From assembly GCA_951406725.2 (NCBI GenBank), contig OX597832.1, positions 43,152,001 through 43,216,000 of the forward strand: a DNA stretch of 64,000 nt, written 5' to 3'. A program made the position numbers and the translations under genes. A model generated the notes under the pieces. The model was not told where the DNA came from. It made no database searches and worked only from the letters and a program-made list of their open reading frames with translations. Of this stretch, positions 14,003 to 46,920 are shown in pieces. This DNA is from Octopus vulgaris. Its lineage: Eukaryota. How positions within the stretch are numbered: the first letter of the stretch is position 1; each line of letters starts with the position of its first letter.

Positions 14003-14490
14003 GCTTTATATTTGTACAAGTTGGCTCCAAGTCTCACCCAGAGACCTCAAGAGACAACAGGTTGGAAGTTCACTTTGTTGTTATGCCTAGTGTGCCATAT
14101 ATTTGGGTTTTTGGGGGTGTTGTACTAGTGAATGTCTAAAAAAAAACTGAAAATTATGTTTGTTTTAAACCTTGAGATTACATAGAAAGCATTTTGCGTA
14201 GGATATGAGCAGTTCCCATGAGCACTATCTTTTGAATTTCTGCCATTTTGGGGTTTCCTTGTATCTGAGTTAGGTAGCAATCAGCCACTTTTGCTATCAT
14301 TCCCAGGGCACCTATGACAACAGGTATTGTTTTAGTCTTCAGGTTCCACCTTTTGCTAATTTCTATTTCAAGATCTTTATATTTGCTCAGTTTTTGGTAG
14401 GTCTTGACAGATACGTTCATATCGATTGGGACAGTCATATCAATGAGGAGGCATGTTTTTTGTCTGAAGTCTTTCAATATGATGTCTGAC
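14003..14490 (-). mobile_element. R4/Dong-clade RLE non-LTR retrotransposon, 3' fragment (subfamily 1)
   Basis: ORF 14178-14477 reads LLIDMTVPIDMNVSVKTYQKLSKYKDL..IPVVIGALG, a restriction-like endonuclease C-terminus. Its 3' UTR matches the copy at 54516-54764. Confidence 0.88.
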
Positions 14491-14491
14491 C

Positions 14492-14550
<59 letters not shown>

Positions 14551-14553
<3 letters not shown>

Positions 14554-16112
14554 TAGTTTTATTTTTATTTTTATAGCGTGCTTTCACTTCACTACCGAGC
14601 ACAGCTCTGTGTGCCTTGGGTATGTGCTGTGATTTGTTGTGATGCTCTGATGGTTATTGTATGGAAAGTGTTCTGCGTAGGATGTGTGCAGTGCCCAGTA
14701 GTGCAATTTTCTGTATGTTATATGTGTTTGTAAGTCCTGGTGTTTTTGTTATGTATTTGTCTGAATATTTTTTTATCATGCCTAATGCACCTACTATGAT
14801 AGGAATTGTTTCTGTTTTCAGATTCCACATTCTAGTTACCTCTATTTCCAGGTCTTTGTATTTTGAGAGTTTCTCCATTTCTTTTAGAGACACGTTGTCA
14901 TCTGCCGGTACTGATACATCAATTAGAAAGCATTTTTTTCTTCATGGTCTCTGACAACTATATCTGGTCTGTTGGCCTTAATTTCTCTATCTGTGTGTAT
15001 CGGCATATCCCAGAGTATGGTTGCTTTCTCGTTTTCTGTGACCTTTTCTGGTGTGTGCCTATACCATCTTTTTTCTGTTGTTATTCCATAATGTTGGCAT
15101 AGCTTCCAATGTATGTAAGTTCCAACTCTGTCATGTCTGTGAATATATTCCTTCTTAGCCAGGACTGGGCAGCTAGAGATAATATGATTTATTGTTTCTT
15201 GTCCATCTCCACATATTCTGCAGTTACTTGTAATATTTCTTTTCATTACATGTTTTTGGTAATTTCTGGTGGGGAGGCTTTGGTCTTGTGCTGCAATTAA
15301 AAATCCCTCTGTTTCTGCTTTGAGTCCTGAGCTTCTCAACCATTGCTGGGATTTTTCTTTGTCTATTTCTTTTGCGTTTAGTTTAGTCCAGTATTTACCA
15401 TGAAGGGGCTTTTCTTGCCATCGTTTTATCATGGTTCTTTGCTGTTCTATTTTTAGTTTGGATTTCATTTTTTTTATAGCTTTTGTTGTTTCTTCATCTT
15501 CTTCTTCTTCATGTTTATTAGGTGGTATGATTTCTTGTTTGTATTTGTCAGCTTCCTTAAATACTGAGAACAGTTTTTTGTTTTGCTCGTGTTTTGCCGC
15601 TATCTGGATCAGTTTTCCTTCCTTCTGAAGTAGATATTTTTGCAGTCCTATGGTGGTTATTTTATAGTAGTTTTCCAGCTGTATAAGGCCTCTACCACCT
15701 TCTATACGTTGTATATATAGTCTTTCTATGTCAGATTTTGGGTGATGCATCCTAGATCCTGTCATTATTTTTCTTGTTTTCCTGTCTATTTTGGTCAGTT
15801 CATTTCGTGTCCAGTTAAGGATATTGTAGCTGTAACTTATAACTGGGACAGCTAAAGTGTTGATACCTATTATCTTGTTTTTAGCATTGAGCTCTGTGTT
15901 TAGTATTGATCTAACTCGTCTATAATATTCTTTTTTTATTTTCTCTTTCTTTGTGTGTGTTGTGTCTTATCTAGTTCATGGATTCCTAAGTATTTGTAAG
16001 TTTGGCTTTGGTCTAATTCTTTTATTTCATTTGCTTCATCTAGTGTGATGTTGTTACTCTTAACTAGTTTTCCTCTTTTCATGGTTACTTTGGCGCATTT
16101 TTCTAATCCAAA
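14551..16112 (-). mobile_element. R4/Dong-clade RLE non-LTR retrotransposon, 5'-truncated and frameshifted (subfamily 2)
   Basis: Minus strand: RT end (FGLEKCAK..YKYLG), thumb (HHPKSD..GGRGL), CCHC knuckle CRICGDGQETINHIISSC, RHD, RPD and KY.DL RLE motifs. A frameshift falls at the T run near 14935. Both flanks are (TAT)n/(TAA)n. Confidence 0.92.
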
Positions 16113-16916: not shown

Positions 16917-17448
16917 GAGCTGGCAGAAACGTTAGCACGCCGGACAAAATGCTTAGCAGTATTTCGTCTGCTGTTACGTTTTGAGTTCAAATTACGTCGA
17001 GGTCGACTTTGCGTTTCATCCCTTCGGGGTCGATAAATTAAGTACCAGTTACACACTGGGGTCGATGTAATCGACTTGATCCCTTTGTCTGTCCTTGATT
17101 TCCCTTCTATGTTTAGCCTCTTGTGGGCAATAAAGAAATAAGTAGTTCGTCTGCCGCTACGTTCTGAGTTCAGATTCCACCGAGGTCGACTCTGCCTTTC
17201 ATCCTTTCGGGTCGATTAAATAAGTACCAGTTACGCACTGGGGTCGATATAATCGACTTAATCCGTTTGTCTGTCCTTGTTTGTCCTCTCTGTGGGTAGT
17301 AAAGAAATAGGTATTTTTGTCTGCCGTTACGTTCTGAGTTCAAATTTCGCCGAGGTCGACTTTGCCTTTCATCCTTTCGGGGTCGATAAATTAAGTATTA
17401 GTTACGCACTGGGGTCGATATAATCGACTTAATCCGTCTGTCTATCCT

Positions 17449-17455
<7 letters not shown>
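16917..17455 (+). mobile_element. SINE family B, one head plus three tandem body units
   Basis: Head GAGCTGGCAGAAACGTTAGCACGCCGG, B-box GAGTTCAAAT, and the core GTCGACTTTGCCTTTCATCCTTTCGGGGTCGAT present three times. Confidence 0.9.
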
Positions 17456-27604: not shown

Positions 27605-28605
27605 AGACTGACTATATAATCATCAGCGATACAGCAACTCTCCCAGACAAGAAAAAAAAACCTACAACTGTATTACTTGCACCCACGCTAAAAGGCAGTA
27701 ACTTAACCAGGACAAGCTAATCTAGTAAATAAGTCCTTCTAATCCAAAATTAGTTACAAATCAAGTTAAACCACACGCCTATCTATTTCAGCAATGGTCC
27801 TTGTTTTCTCGTTTAAGCGTTATCGTTTATCGTGCTGTGTCACCCGATACGGTCAACATATGCAGTGTATAGGAAGAAGTCTGTTTTCAGATCTCTCAGT
27901 GTGGAAAACAAAATAATGAAGGCTTTTGTATACGTGAATAGCGCATAATTAATTTGAAACTGCGCTAATATGCAATGTGTGGTGTGCAATGTGCAGTTGG
28001 CATGTATCATAAACAAAGCACGTTCATTTGATAGAAGAAATAAAGAGTCTTTATTACGAATTTGCTCTACATTTTAAATTTGCTTCCTAAGAGACGCGAG
28101 AATGAAATGGTTGTGCCGTTGGCTTCTGGGTTGAAATGCCTCCATCAATGAAGCTATATTATGTTTCTTGTAGTAAACGATGAAGTACACGGTCAGTATA
28201 TTTATGTATGCTATGTTATAGTTTTGTCTGAAGCACATAGCTTTTTCTGCCTCTGATATTGGAGAAGGTGACCGAGTGAATGAGATTGATAAATATAGAC
28301 GCACAGAGGTCTGTGTAGCATAGAATGAGAAAAAAATGAATGAGAGAGCGCGAGAGAGAAAGAAAGAATGAATGAAAGAAAGATAGAAAGAAAGGAAGGA
28401 TGGAAGAAAGGGAGTTAGATGGAAAAGACTGAGAGACCGGTGGATAAACTAGTAGATAAACAGAAAGAAGACAGATATAAGGACAGATAAGATGGTTAGA
28501 TAGATAGATAGATAGATACATACATACATACATACATACATACATACATACATACATACATACATACATACATACATAGAGAGATAGATAGACAGACAGA
28601 CAGAC

Positions 28606-28947
28606 ATCGACCATAGTGCGTACCTGGTACTTAATTTATTGACCCCGAAAGGATGAAAGGCAAACTCAACCTCGGCGGAATTTGAACTCAGAACGTAACG
28701 GCAGACGAAATACCTATTTCCTTAGTACCCACAAGGGGCTAAACATAGAGGGGACAAACAAGGACAGACATAGGTATTAAGTCGATTACATCGACCCCAG
28801 TGCGTAACTGGTACTTAATTTATCGATCCCGAAAGGATGAAAGGCAAAGTCGACCCCGGCAGAATTTGAACTCAGAAAGGAAGCGGCAAACCAAGTACCG
28901 CTAAGCATTTCGCCCGGTTTGCTAACGTTTCTGCCAGTTTACCGCCT
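28606..28947 (-). mobile_element. SINE family B, tandem units
   Basis: Two CCCGAAAGGATGAAAGGCAAA cores, with the head at 28890-28947. Confidence 0.88.
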
Positions 28948-29189
28948 TATGTATGTGTATCTCTTACTAGTAATACGTGATATCGTCGGTCAAGCTAATT
29001 TATATGAAATTATTCCTCCCTTATTTATTTTCCCATTGTCTACGACAGTAACTTTACCACCACCTATACAATTACAACTAATAATTCACCCCCACCTTTA
29101 CCTTCGCTTCTTCGTCTCTGTCCTCTTGTTCTCCAATATCTACTACTTATACTATCACTTCCTATACTTATACTACCACTTCCTACCAC

Positions 29190-29572
29190 TGAGACATTTA
29201 GAAATTCAATATTTCTAATTACGGTGACCAGGGAATAGATTTCACTGTAAATACATATATTTGCGAAGGCTTGACAGGCACCTCAGTTAGCAGGACTTGC
29301 TACCCCAGACTGATGATGAGCAAGACCCAGAAACATGCATGTCTCTAGGTGCTAGTCCTAGCTGATGGAGGTGCTTGCCTCCACTTCGCAAATATAAGGA
29401 CACAGGAAATGTGTCAAAGCCAACAGGAAGCGTCGATGCTTCTTAGGGCTAAATAGCGGTGCTGTAATTCCCTTTACGGGACTGTCACGTTATGTTGACA
29501 GAATACAACCACTCTCTCGCTCCACCACCGCTCATGTCTCTTTGAGACATTTAGAAATTCAATATTTCTAAT
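29190..29572 (+). mobile_element. retrozyme-like unit (353-bp monomer plus 30-bp terminal direct repeat)
   Basis: TGAGACATTTAGAAATTCAATATTTCTAAT occurs at 29190-29219 and 29543-29572. The interior has a type I hammerhead and extensive self-complementarity, and no ORF. Confidence 0.7.
29301..29352 (+). ncRNA. type I hammerhead ribozyme
   Basis: aga CUGAUGA (29310-16), stem II tgag/ccca with one mismatch, GAAA (29330-33), palindromic helix III ACAUGCAUGU, GUC (29341-43), then tct. Stem I extends into a long rod. Confidence 0.8.
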
Positions 29573-30037
29573 ATGTAAATGTTGTTTTCATTTTAAGATA
29601 GCGCTTGGAGTACAGACATTGTCACACTTTTGATAACATATATTTATTTATTGCAAATATACAGATAAGAAATCTGTTTTATTAAATTTTCTCTTTATTC
29701 AATATCTGCCTTACATATATGAAATAAGTCAACACGTTAGATCTACATTTAATTGATTATTAAACAGTATTATTGATATTCATAGCATATACTTTTGGTT
29801 TTGGGACTAAATATGTTAAAATTACACAAAAGATTGCATTATTTGCTATGATTAAAATAACTATTCTCGACAATTTTCAAAATTCACTATATATAATACC
29901 GTTCCACTGCTGTAGTCTAAAAGCTTATATTTTCAAAGTATACGTGTTCTTAAATAGGTCATGCTGAAAAGTGTGTTGCTAATCTTATTGAAAATTAATT
30001 AGTCGCATTTGCAATTACTTGACCCCTGGGCTTAACA

Positions 30038-30353
30038 GGGATCTTTTCGCTTTTACCGGCAGATTTTTAAAAATAAATTCTTTGTAACTAAACACTTTTA
30101 AATTTCGTATGCTGGTAGAATGTGTTACATAAAACAGCTTTTTCTCTTGGCTTTCTTGAGAAAATTCTATAATTTATAAGCTATTTGTTGTTTAATTTCT
30201 TGCATTTCGGCAATTTCAACCAATCAATGACGTCTATTGAGGTGAATACAATTTCTCCGGTTCTTTGTCAACAACATTTTCTGGCGGTGTTTAAAAGTGT
30301 TTACTTACAAAGAAATGATTTTTAAAATCTGCCGGTCAAAGCGAAAAGATCCC
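30038..30353. mobile_element. MITE (non-autonomous DNA transposon) with about 60-bp TIRs
   Basis: GGGATCTTTTCGCTTTTACCGGCAGATTTTTAAAAAT..CTTTGTAACTAAACACTTTT at the left and its reverse complement ending GCCGGTCAAAGCGAAAAGATCCC at the right. No clear TSD. Confidence 0.88.
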
Positions 30354-30464
30354 TCACAAAAGAATGAAAGGCAAAGTCAAACTCAGCGTAATTTATGTGC
30401 AGAACTTAGAAACGTACGAAATGCCGCTAAGCAACTCGTGGCATTGATTATGATAATAACAAGC

Positions 30465-31379: not shown

Positions 31380-31387
31380 TTACCATA

Positions 31388-31479
31388 CGCCCGCAGAGGG
31401 ACTTGAACCCGCGACCCTCAAATTACTTCTAAGGTTGACCTATAAAAGTCTGATGCTCTACCGACTGAGCTATGCGGGC
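31388..31479 (-). tRNA. tRNA-Lys(UUU) with 19-nt intron at canonical position 37/38 (gene or retrocopy)
   Basis: Exon 1 GCCCGCATAGCTCAGTCGGTAGAGCATCAGACTTTTA (31479-31443), intron TAGGTCAACCTTAGAAGTA (31442-31424), exon 2 ATTTGAGGGTCGCGGGTTCAAGTCCCTCTGCGGGCG. The acceptor stem is perfect, with one T-stem mismatch and one G-U pair in the anticodon stem. Confidence 0.88.
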
Positions 31480-31711
31480 GGCTGTATAGTTATATTTTTG
31501 TGAATGCGTGCGTATTTTCGTGTGTACGTTACTATTTGTCCCGGTGCATTTACGCGAGGATATGAATAGATGTAAGTGCGCACGTATGCATTTCCATACA
31601 TGTATTTAAGAACTCGTTTAAGTACGTTTGCCTGTACGTTTGGACGTATGCGTTTTGCAAAAACACGTTTACGTGTCTGTGTTTGTGAGTGGTATTTTTT
31701 AATGCCCATAG

Positions 31712-44192: not shown

Positions 44193-44736
44193 TACATATC
44201 TCTAAACACAAATACACACACACACACGCACAAATACTTATAGGTACGCAGAAATACACCCACACGCACACACAAATACACACACAAATATACACACACT
44301 CACACAACTACACACACATGCAGCCGCACACATACACACAAATGCACATGCATACACACATATGCACGAAAACGCACACACACAAATACACGCACAAGCG
44401 CGTACGTGCGCACAAACAAATACACACACACACACCTATAAATACACGCACAAATACATTTGTAGTATCTGTATAAATGTATATACGCATGTGCGCGCAC
44501 GTATATATATATATATATATATCCGTTTGCAAATGTGCACTCACCAGTGCACCTGCACATTGATAAACATTGCCAGACACGTGCACACGCATGCAGATAC
44601 ATGTACGCACGTGTGCAGACATGCAAATTTTACACACATACTTATGCATACGTACAAGCATACGTACACACACACATTCACATACATACATAGATACACA
44701 CACACAGATGCACTCATATATATGCACAGCTAAAAA

Positions 44737-46920
44737 AGCATATGTATATATAAGTTATGTATACACACCTACAAGCATATGTATATATAAATCATGTATA
44801 CACACCTACAAGCATATGTATATATAAATTGTGTATACACACCTACAAGCATATGTATATATAAGTTATGTATACACACCTACAAGCATATGTATATATA
44901 AATTATGTATACACACCTACAAGCATATGTATATATAAATTATGTATACACACCTACAAGCATATGTATATATAAATTATGTATACACACCTACAAGCAT
45001 ATGTATATATAAATTATGTATACACACCTACAAGCATATGTATATATAAATTATGTATACACACCTACAAGCATACGTATATATAAATTATGTATACACA
45101 CCTACAAGCATATGTATATATATAAGTTATGTATACACACCTACAAGCATATGTATATATATAAATTATGTATACACACCTACAAGCATATGTATATATA
45201 TAAGTTATGTATACACACCTACAAGCATATGTATATATAAATTATGTATACACACCTACAAGCATATGTATATATATAAGTTATGTATACACACCTACAA
45301 GCATATGTATATATAAATTATGTATACACACCTACAAGCATATGTATATATAAATTATGTATACACACCTACAAGCATATGAATATATATAAGTTATGTA
45401 TACACACCTACAAGCATATGTATATATATAAGTTATGTATACACACCTACAAGCATATGTATATATAAATTATGTATACACACCTACAAGCATATGTATA
45501 TATATAAGTTATGTATACACACCTACAAGCATATGTATATATAAATTATGTATACACACCTACAAGCATATGTATATATATAAGTTATGTATACACACCT
45601 ACAAGCATATGTATATATAAATTATGTATACACACCTACAAGCATATGTATATATAAATTGTGTATACACACCTACAAGCATATGAATATATAAATCATG
45701 TATACACACCTACAAGCATATGTATATATAAATTATGTATACACACCTACAAGCATATGTATATATATAAGTTATGTATACACACCTACAAGCATATGTA
45801 TATATAAATTATGTATACACACCTACAAGCATATGTATATATATAAGTTATGTATACACACCTACAAGCATATGTATATATAAATTATGTATACACACCT
45901 ACAAGCATATGTATATATATAAGTTATGTATACACACCTACAAGCATATGTATATATAAATTATGTATACACACCTACAAGCATATGAATATATATAAGT
46001 TATGTATACACACCTACAAGCATATGTATATATATAAGTTATGTATACACACCTACAAGCATATGTATATATAAATTATGTATACACACCTACAAGCATA
46101 TGTATATATATAAGTTATGTATACACACCTACAAGCATATGTATATATAAATTATGTATACACACCTACAAGCATATGTATATATATAAGTTATGTATAC
46201 ACACCTACAAGCATATGTATATATAAATTATGTATACACACCTACAAGCATATGTATATATAAATTGTGTATACACACCTACAAGCATATGAATATATAA
46301 ATCATGTATACACACCTACAAGCATATGTATATATAAATTATGTATACACACCTACAAGCATATGTATATATATAAGTTATGTATACACACCTACAAGCA
46401 TATGTATATATAAATTATGTATACACACCTACAAGCATATGTATATATATAAGTTATGTATACACACCTACAAGCATATGTATATATATATTATGTATAC
46501 ACACCTACAAGCATATGTATATATATAAGTTATGTATACACACCTACAAGCATATGTATATATAAATTATGTATACACACCTACAAGCATATGTATATAT
46601 ATAAGTTATGTATACACACCTACAAGCATATGTATATATAAATTATGTATACACACCTACAAGCATATGTATATATAAATCATGTATACACACCTACAAG
46701 CATATGTATATATAAATTATGTATACACACCTACAAGCATATGTATATATAAGTTATGTATACACACCTACAATCATACGTATATATAAATTATGTATAC
46801 ACACCTACAAGCATATGTATATATAAATTATGTATACACACCTACAAGCATATGTATATATAAATTATGTATACACACCTACAAGCATATGTATATATGA
46901 ATTATACATACACACCTATA
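44737..46920. repeat. 37/39-bp minisatellite (roughly 58 units)
   Basis: Unit TATGTATACACACCTACAAGCATATGTATATATAAAT (37 bp) and a 39-bp variant ending TATATATATAAGT. Confidence 0.97.

What the first reader, a model, noticed from the sequence alone, without database searches (positions are those of the whole stretch)
29190..29572. Retrozyme/circRNA candidate: 353-nt rod-like unit with a type I hammerhead and terminal redundancy
Seen: an exact 30-bp direct repeat 353 bp apart, and a canonical core CUGAUGA...GAAA...GUC with palindromic helix III (ACAUGCAUGU). Stem I extends as a long rod (TATATTTGCGAAG/CTTCGCAAATATA, AGGCACCTC/GAGGTGCTT, AGGACT/AGTCCT). The hairpin ATGTCTC-ttt-GAGACAT spans the monomer junction, and there is no ORF. 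Established: non-LTR retrozymes in metazoans are non-coding units of a few hundred nt with type I hammerheads that yield circular RNAs, are thought to use PLE machinery, and can cleave as dimers through a palindromic helix III. Inference: this is a slightly-more-than-monomer genomic copy reverse-transcribed from a circular RNA of a cephalopod retrozyme family, possibly undescribed.
Basis: partly seen in the sequence, partly recalled or inferred. Interest (0 to 1): 0.8.

Follow-up and report, generated by a model that had tools for sequence, protein, structure and literature searches.

The report
High-copy hammerhead retrozyme family, one copy
This is one copy of a very abundant 353-base non-coding repeat in an animal genome that carries a hammerhead ribozyme motif predicted to cut its own RNA, and it likely spreads through small circular RNAs like the known animal retrozymes, so it is probably a new family of a known kind rather than a new mechanism.

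Summary
The sequence features are real: an exact 30-bp repeat 353 bp apart, a type I hammerhead motif (29304-29349) absent from 200 shuffles, a stable predicted circle (z -7.4) and no ORF. Public contigs from three organism labels show the 383-bp stretch is a high-copy family in single-copy flanks. In diverged copies the 30-mer is joined to the body on both sides, so it is part of the unit and not a target-site duplication. Family variants mostly keep the base pairs, and two pairs vary on both sides, one in helix I. A second hammerhead variant with a 1-bp helix III sits on the same backbone. Corrections: the predicted circle is branched, not a rod; this copy has mismatches in helices I and II and misses all Rfam models; its 3-bp helix III need not dimerise; the right end looks preferred rather than randomly permuted, which recalls Penelope insertions. 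Self-cleavage, circular RNA, tandem arrays and the cephalopod host are not shown. Verdict: likely a monomer-plus-30 copy of a non-LTR retrozyme family; new member of a known kind; no description found in the library searched.

The parts
29190..29542 (+). One full 353-bp unit of the repeat family (45% GC, non-coding)
   Evidence: Repeat spacing; GC 0.453 and circular fold -125.1 kcal/mol, z -7.4; summed contig depth three to four orders above flanks
29190..29219 (+). Left copy of the 30-bp terminal redundancy; left end falls in the loop of the junction hairpin (29189 may belong too)
   Evidence: Exact match; 38% of X1 depth has C at the equivalent position 29542, as at 29189
29219..29250 (+). 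Predicted hairpin arm
   Evidence: Folds
29254..29398 (+). Long imperfect rod extending helix I, hammerhead at its tip
   Evidence: Inverted repeat I3; folds; pair 29287/29365 varies on both sides in 94-95% of X1 depth
29304..29349 (+). Type I hammerhead motif: helix I 29304-09/29344-49 (one mismatch), core 29310-16, helix II 29317-29 (one mismatch, 5-nt loop), GAAA 29330-33, palindromic helix III 29333-42, predicted cut after C29343
   Evidence: Pair table and descriptor scan with shuffles; pair 29307/29346 varies on both sides; activity untested
29399..29533 (+). Branched hairpin half of the unit, the most deeply covered part; ends in a C-rich, mostly unpaired stretch 29503-29533
   Evidence: Folds; depth bins; 16 C of 31 bases
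29534..29550 (+). 7-bp hairpin across the unit junction
   Evidence: Sequence; fold
29543..29572 (+). Right copy of the 30-bp redundancy; likely preferred 3' end of insertions
   Evidence: 23 X1 contigs leave the family at 29574 into AT-rich letters that agree only 0.49 (table 7)

Best explanation
This is one dispersed, slightly-longer-than-unit copy of a high-copy 353-bp repeat family with a type I hammerhead motif, likely a non-LTR retrozyme that was reverse-transcribed from a circular or multimeric RNA and likely inserted by a borrowed Penelope-like enzyme. Shown: the anatomy, the high copy number, that the 30-mer is part of the unit, and structure-preserving variation. Inferred steps: (1) tandem or read-through transcripts of intact family members self-cleave after the position equivalent to C29343; (2) monomers are ligated to 353-nt circles; (3) a PLE reverse transcriptase, primed at a nick in AT-rich DNA, starts at a preferred internal site of the RNA (equivalent to about 29572), runs through the ribozyme site once round the unit and 30 nt beyond, stopping here at the junction-hairpin loop. 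This copy has one hammerhead only, so it cannot release a monomer by itself, and its helix mismatches make it likely a weak or dead copy.
For: (4 of 24 listed runs laid, 80% likeness): 3342, 2948, 1450 and 342 contigs laid; flank depth 37-66 (X1) and 44-53 (X4) against 1e4-7.6e5 summed inside 29190-29572 (not a copy number, but three to four orders higher). Diverged contigs join the 30-mer to the body on the right (X4 record 23, 29446-29567, 14 differences; X7 record 31, 29453-29574, 11) and on the left (X1 record 2 from 29189, 17; X11 record 9, 29208-29343, 17), and one X7 contig goes back 348 bases (29555 to 29208). The copy is continuous across the predicted cut site and longer than one unit, which needs a circular or multimeric template; of 34 variant rows inside the unit, 19 hit paired sites; 14 keep the pair (null mean 8.9, P 0.011), 2 more are kept by a listed partner change; 4 of 4 at 1x1 mismatches fill them; 0 of 34 fall in the 21 core and helix III positions. 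Size, GC under 50%, type I and no ORF match PMC7229834; helix I 6 bp and helix II 4 bp match the canonical form in PMC4209133. Preferred internal RT start, AT-rich target and 30-40 bp tail are PLE traits (PMC11167929; 10.1101/2021.04.23.441226).
Against: No cleavage or RNA evidence. Only 1 of 14 listed joints looks head-to-tail. 3 of the 19 paired-site variants break the window's pairs with no listed partner change. The variant rows are unphased and only 40 of 93 were shown; loose ends 24 of 679. The 29574 end cluster is listed for X1 only; X7 lists a different low-agreement cluster at 29515 (10 contigs). No Rfam hammerhead hit. The active fold is 9 kcal/mol above the predicted minimum, and for 29292-29357 the double-hammerhead form (-12.1) is far above the free two-copy fold (-43.7). 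In one study only 1 of 9 predicted retrozyme dimers cleaved (10.64898/2026.07.22.740005). No PLE sharing this sequence was seen.
Confidence: 0.7

Rival explanations
1. It is a solo pseudo-LTR or truncated end of an autonomous Penelope-like element, with the 30 bp as its tail and no free small circular RNA stage.
For: Preferred right end into AT-rich DNA and a 30-bp extension (PMC11167929). A second family variant has a 1-bp helix III closed by a 4-nt palindrome (tables 5c, 7). Retrozymes resemble pLTRs in Xenopus (10.64898/2026.07.22.740005), so the two readings grade into each other.
Against: The 30-mer joins the body on both sides in diverged copies, closing a 353-bp period; the loose ends at the right terminus share no common sequence (agreement 0.49). 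Helix II is 4 bp, not the 7-8 bp of the schistosome PLE minimal hammerheads (PMC4209133). No ORF; no PLE domain among 11 window ORFs scanned.
Confidence: 0.15
2. It is an orphan piece of a tandem satellite of hammerhead units, moved at the DNA level (recombination or extrachromosomal circle), with no RNA step for this copy.
For: A tandem array gives the same unit-plus-30 anatomy; no target-site duplication flanks the copy; satellite-like local amplification is proposed for retrozymes (10.64898/2026.07.22.740005).
Against: DNA-level dispersal predicts random ends, whereas 23 X1 contigs end at one place; pair-preserving variation points to selection on RNA.
Confidence: 0.1
3. It is a 323-bp insertion with a 30-bp target-site duplication of host DNA.
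For: The repeat is exact, AT-rich (20% GC) like the right flank (24% GC).
Against: The 30-mer is deeply covered and contiguous with the body in diverged copies from three organism labels; depth falls to single-copy only outside it; it pairs with the unit's 3' end. No joint skipping 353 bases is among the 14 listed.
Confidence: 0.03

Closest known systems
Metazoan non-LTR retrozymes (coral, Mytilus galloprovincialis, axolotl; PMC7229834)
   Same: 150-450 bp non-coding unit, GC under 50%, type I hammerhead, thousands-scale family, highly self-paired predicted circle, two ribozyme variants in one genome; mussel units are 350-390 bp and an axolotl unit is 353 bp
   Different: This locus is a monomer plus 30 bp, not a tandem; circRNA and cleavage untested; 3-bp helix III; U-A rather than G-C at the base of helix II; no sequence comparison with known families was possible (supplement unreadable)
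Penelope-like elements and their pLTR hammerheads (PMC4209133, PMC11167929, 10.1101/2021.04.23.441226)
   Same: Type I hammerhead with palindromic helix III, 30-40 bp terminal extension, AT-rich insertion site, likely preferred 3' end
   Different: No RT or GIY-YIG ORF; helix sizes canonical rather than minimal; unit closes on itself at 353 bp
Plant LTR retrozymes (passages of PMC5680766, PMC7761336)
   Same: Non-coding hammerhead retroelement thought to cycle through circRNA
   Different: Those have type III hammerheads inside 300-400 bp LTRs and 4-bp TSDs; here type I, one ribozyme, a 30-bp redundancy without ribozyme, no TSD

Membership tests
Non-LTR retrozyme | Type I hammerhead motif | tested here: met
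   Descriptor hit, 0 of 200 shuffles; two helix mismatches in this copy; Rfam models miss it
Non-LTR retrozyme | Unit of 150-450 bp, GC under 50% | tested here: met
   353 bp, GC 0.453
Non-LTR retrozyme | No protein-coding capacity | tested here: met
   Longest Met-to-stop 21 aa round the circle, both strands
Non-LTR retrozyme | Many genomic copies | tested here: met
   Thousands of contigs laid, depth three to four orders above flanks; no second copy inside this window
Non-LTR retrozyme | Family occurs as tandem repeats | tested here: inconclusive
   One go-back joint among 14 listed; 30-mer joined to body on both sides; contigs too short; no genome
Non-LTR retrozyme | Highly self-paired predicted circle | tested here: met
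   z -7.4 against 60 shuffles; the minus strand also folds well (z -6.4)
Non-LTR retrozyme | Self-cleavage in vitro | not testable with these tools
   Needs an assay
Non-LTR retrozyme | Expressed as circular RNA | tested here: inconclusive
   No run on record as RNA; contigs cannot show circles or strand
Non-LTR retrozyme | Absence of PBS and PPT | not tested
   No explicit search was run
'Active' retrozyme locus as defined in 10.64898/2026.07.22.740005 | At least two consecutive units each with a hammerhead | tested here: not met
   One hammerhead at this locus; it is a 'monomer' in that scheme
Autonomous Penelope-like element | RT plus GIY-YIG ORF | tested here: not met
   No ORF in the element
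PLE-mobilised insertion | Fixed 3' end, 30-40 bp tail, AT-rich target | tested here: inconclusive
   23-contig end cluster at 29574 in X1 only among rows shown; flanks AT-rich
Plant LTR retrozyme | Type III hammerheads in two long LTRs, 4-bp TSD | tested here: not met
   Type I, single; no exact TSD of 3-30 bp at three end choices
Viroid-like or HDV-like replicating circle | Ribozymes in both polarities, rod fold (recalled) | tested here: not met
   No hammerhead on the minus strand, no Rfam ribozyme, branched fold

The most novel reading that the evidence does not exclude
A retrozyme family whose dispersed copies carry the Penelope insertion signature itself: one fixed reverse-transcription start inside the circle and a 30-nt overrun equal to the PLE tail. 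The same backbone carries two interchangeable hammerhead modules, one able to cut as a monomer and one needing a dimer. It would be direct genomic evidence for which enzyme copies animal ribozyme circles, and where on the circle it starts, in a lineage where retrozymes have not been described.
Probability: 0.3. Interest if true: 0.62.

Novelty: new member of a known kind. Interest (0 to 1): 0.4.

Why it matters
Non-LTR retrozymes are known from coral, mussel, amphibians and many vertebrates, so one more family is expected. Its use is as a test case. PLE mobilisation of retrozymes is still inferred from co-occurrence and sequence likeness. A family with thousands of dispersed copies lets one map ends and ask whether they obey the PLE rules found in vitro (internal RT start, AT-rich nick, tail). 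The two hammerhead variants allow a monomer-versus-dimer comparison on one scaffold. It also shows that a large ribozyme family can be invisible to Rfam-based annotation.

Tried and rejected
No whole genome is held, so copy number, arrays, end maps and a PLE partner could not be searched. Rfam: no ribozyme at gathering score in the window or at E<=10 in 29000-29800. BLAST of 28950-29900 against the window: no second copy. Exact-pattern scans found 0 loci in viral contigs, metagenome contigs and prokaryote genomes. No RNA holder is listed; that blank says nothing on expression. X11 is only guessed to be RNA; it covers the element and not the flanks, and its deepest element bin is about 1,280 times the neighbouring repeat's bin against 117-180 times in the other three runs, but summed contig depth is a poor measure, so I do not count it as expression. 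No empty site: no listed joint skips 353 bases, but contigs drop rare variants. Pol III boxes: no exact A or B box on +, only one-mismatch matches; the bacterial promoter scan is irrelevant. Host: the LINE ORF search gave marine-invertebrate-like relatives at up to 55% identity and did not name the host; four short window motifs are in no paper searched. Earlier scan notes: nothing. One search crashed and was redone. The supplement of PMC7229834 could not be read and bioRxiv supplements are closed; either may list this family.

Full report
Observation. The window is microsatellite-rich animal-type DNA. At 29190-29219 and 29543-29572 lies an exact 30-bp direct repeat, spacing 353; 200 dinucleotide shuffles of 28900-30400 give at most 15 bp. 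Inside is a type I hammerhead motif: helix I 29304-09/29344-49, core 29310-16, helix II 29317-29, GAAA 29330-33, a 10-nt palindromic helix III 29333-42 and C29343. My descriptor finds this one site in 64 kb and none in 200 shuffled windows. The unit folded as a circle gives -125.1 kcal/mol, z -7.4 over 60 shuffles; the minus strand also folds well (z -6.4). The linear 383-mer gives z -9.0. No frame exceeds 21 aa from Met.

The predicted circle is branched; only 29254-29398 is a rod. The copy has an A.C mismatch in helix II, U-A at the base of helix II where G-C is typical (PMC4209133), and a C.A mismatch in helix I. Rfam gives no ribozyme hit even at E<=10. The free fold mispairs the core, and the active fold costs 9.0 kcal/mol in a model that ignores tertiary contacts; I ran no control ribozyme. 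Helix III has 3 pairs and a 4-nt loop (+1.7 kcal/mol alone, -13.3 as a 10-bp self-duplex). For 29292-29357 the double hammerhead (-12.1) is better than two active monomers (+4.6) but worse than two free monomers (-27.0) or the free two-copy fold (-43.7). Dimer cleavage is possible but not required by the anatomy; most invertebrate type I hammerheads cut as monomers (PMC7761336, passages).

Copy number and boundaries. No genome is held. The run search listed 24 runs; 20 hold part of the stretch, none half of its words, in 9 studies and four coded organism labels; none is on record as RNA. I laid 4 of the 24 (X1, X4, X7, X11; labels A, B, C, A) on 28950-29900 at 80% likeness. 3342, 2948, 1450 and 342 contigs were laid. 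Flank depth is 37-66 in X1 and 44-53 in X4; summed depth inside the element is 1e4 to 7.6e5, rising in the bin 29174-29205 and falling after 29558-29589. The tool warns this is no copy number; I read it only as three to four orders above single copy. X1 and X4 both hold both junction contigs. X1 matches the flanks exactly and may be the source; X4 differs (3 letters left; 3 letters and 6 gap letters right), so the insertion is shared by two diverged samples. No listed joint skips 353 bases.

The 30-mer belongs to the unit. Contigs with 11-17 differences run from the body into the 30-mer on the right (records 23, 31) and from the 30-mer into the body on the left (records 2, 9); one X7 contig goes back 348 bases, 1 of 14 listed joints. 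The 30-mer also pairs with the unit's 3' end (hairpin 29534-29550). No exact TSD of 3-30 bp lies outside it at three end choices. The TSD reading fails. Tandem arrays remain unproven because the contigs are short.

Selection on the fold. The variant table showed 40 of 93 rows; I dropped 6 in the flanks and scored 34 against the hammerhead-constrained circle. 19 are at paired sites: 14 keep the pair against the window's partner (null with the same transition share: mean 8.9, P 0.011), 2 are kept by a listed partner change (pairs 29287/29365 and 29307/29346, the latter in helix I), 3 break. 4 of 4 rows at 1x1 mismatches fill them, including 29319 (64% of X1 depth) and 29306 (29%). 11 are unpaired. 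None of the 34 lies in the 21 core and helix III positions. The rows are unphased and chosen by support, and the structure came from this copy, so this is support and not proof. I cannot say whether the helix II mismatch is private: 36% of depth shares the window's letter.

A second hammerhead variant. Loose ends before 29366 (22, 21, 13 and 2 contigs, agreement 0.78-1.0) and the 39 letters of one X7 joint show a different ribozyme half on the same backbone, with helix III cut to one pair closed by a 4-nt palindrome (tables 5c, 7). By eye, variants at 29295, 29297 and 29304, each near two thirds of X1 depth, would pair with that loose-end strand, which would account for the apparent breaks at 29295 and 29297. 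This is inference from unphased tables. A 1-bp helix III is the amphibian, dimer-dependent form (PMC7229834).

Ends and mechanism. Of 24 loose-end rows shown (679 in all), one in X1 marks 23 contigs leaving the family at 29574 into AT-rich letters with agreement 0.49, the same signature as at the edge of a neighbouring repeat (29645, 0.52). It is not listed for X4, X7 or X11; X7 lists a similar cluster at 29515 (10 contigs). No left-end cluster is among the rows shown. A PLE protein in vitro starts reverse transcription at two internal sites of its RNA, primed at AT-rich nicks, and the 30-40 bp tail is the stretch between them (PMC11167929). A preferred 3' end on the ribozyme strand fits that. 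The copy runs across the cut site and beyond one unit, so its template was circular or multimeric, or it came from a DNA array. I favour a retrozyme copy made by PLE machinery (0.7) over a solo pLTR (0.15), a dispersed satellite piece (0.1) and a TSD (0.03). Cleavage, ligation, priming and partner are all inferred.

Host. Not established. The window holds a dispersed SINE-like family (17 BLAST pieces) that I recall as octopus-type; that label comes from no call. A LINE ORF search gave relatives at up to 55% identity, named ones from coral, shrimp and beetle. If the host is Octopus vulgaris or kin, PLEs are abundant there (6.83% of the O. vulgaris assembly, supplement row of PMC13282606).

Literature seen. 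PMC7229834: parts 2-4 of 6, supplement unreadable. 10.64898/2026.07.22.740005: parts 1-3 of 5. PMC4209133: parts 1-2 of 4. PMC11167929: parts 1-2 of 4. Passages only: 10.1101/2021.04.23.441226, PMC13282606 and its supplement (no mention of ribozyme, hammerhead or retrozyme), PMC5680766, PMC6962438 (235 hammerhead 1 loci in giant squid), PMC7761336. Searches listed no paper describing a cephalopod retrozyme or this sequence; the library lacks most subscription papers, and Repbase and Dfam were not available.

Verdict. A real feature, likely a new family of a known kind. Interest 0.4; up to about 0.6 if end mapping shows the PLE signature.

Noticed in passing
window 31387-31480, minus strand: tRNA-Lys(TTT) gene with about 20 extra bases after the anticodon, likely an intron (Rfam 55.7 bits; ARAGORN; sequence).
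   Followed up: partly
window 14178-15966, minus strand: 3' part of a LINE: 347-aa frame with zf-RVT, relatives carry an RT domain at up to 55% identity.
   Followed up: partly
window 30037-30354: MITE-like inverted repeat, arms of 36-38 nt at 92-94% complementarity.
   Followed up: no
window 29645-29690: A short second dispersed repeat just right of the element: depth about 100 times the flanks with low-agreement loose ends at both edges.
   Followed up: no
window 44736-46918: 37-bp minisatellite, 58 copies, 94% matches.
   Followed up: no
window 28604-28920, 16940-17455 and others: Dispersed SINE-like family, 17 BLAST pieces in the window, including a 171-bp tandem of about 3 copies.
   Followed up: partly
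window 29547-29553 and 29576-29582: The right flank starts with 7 bases complementary to the start of the 30-mer (I5); may be chance in AT-rich DNA or pairing during priming.
   Followed up: no
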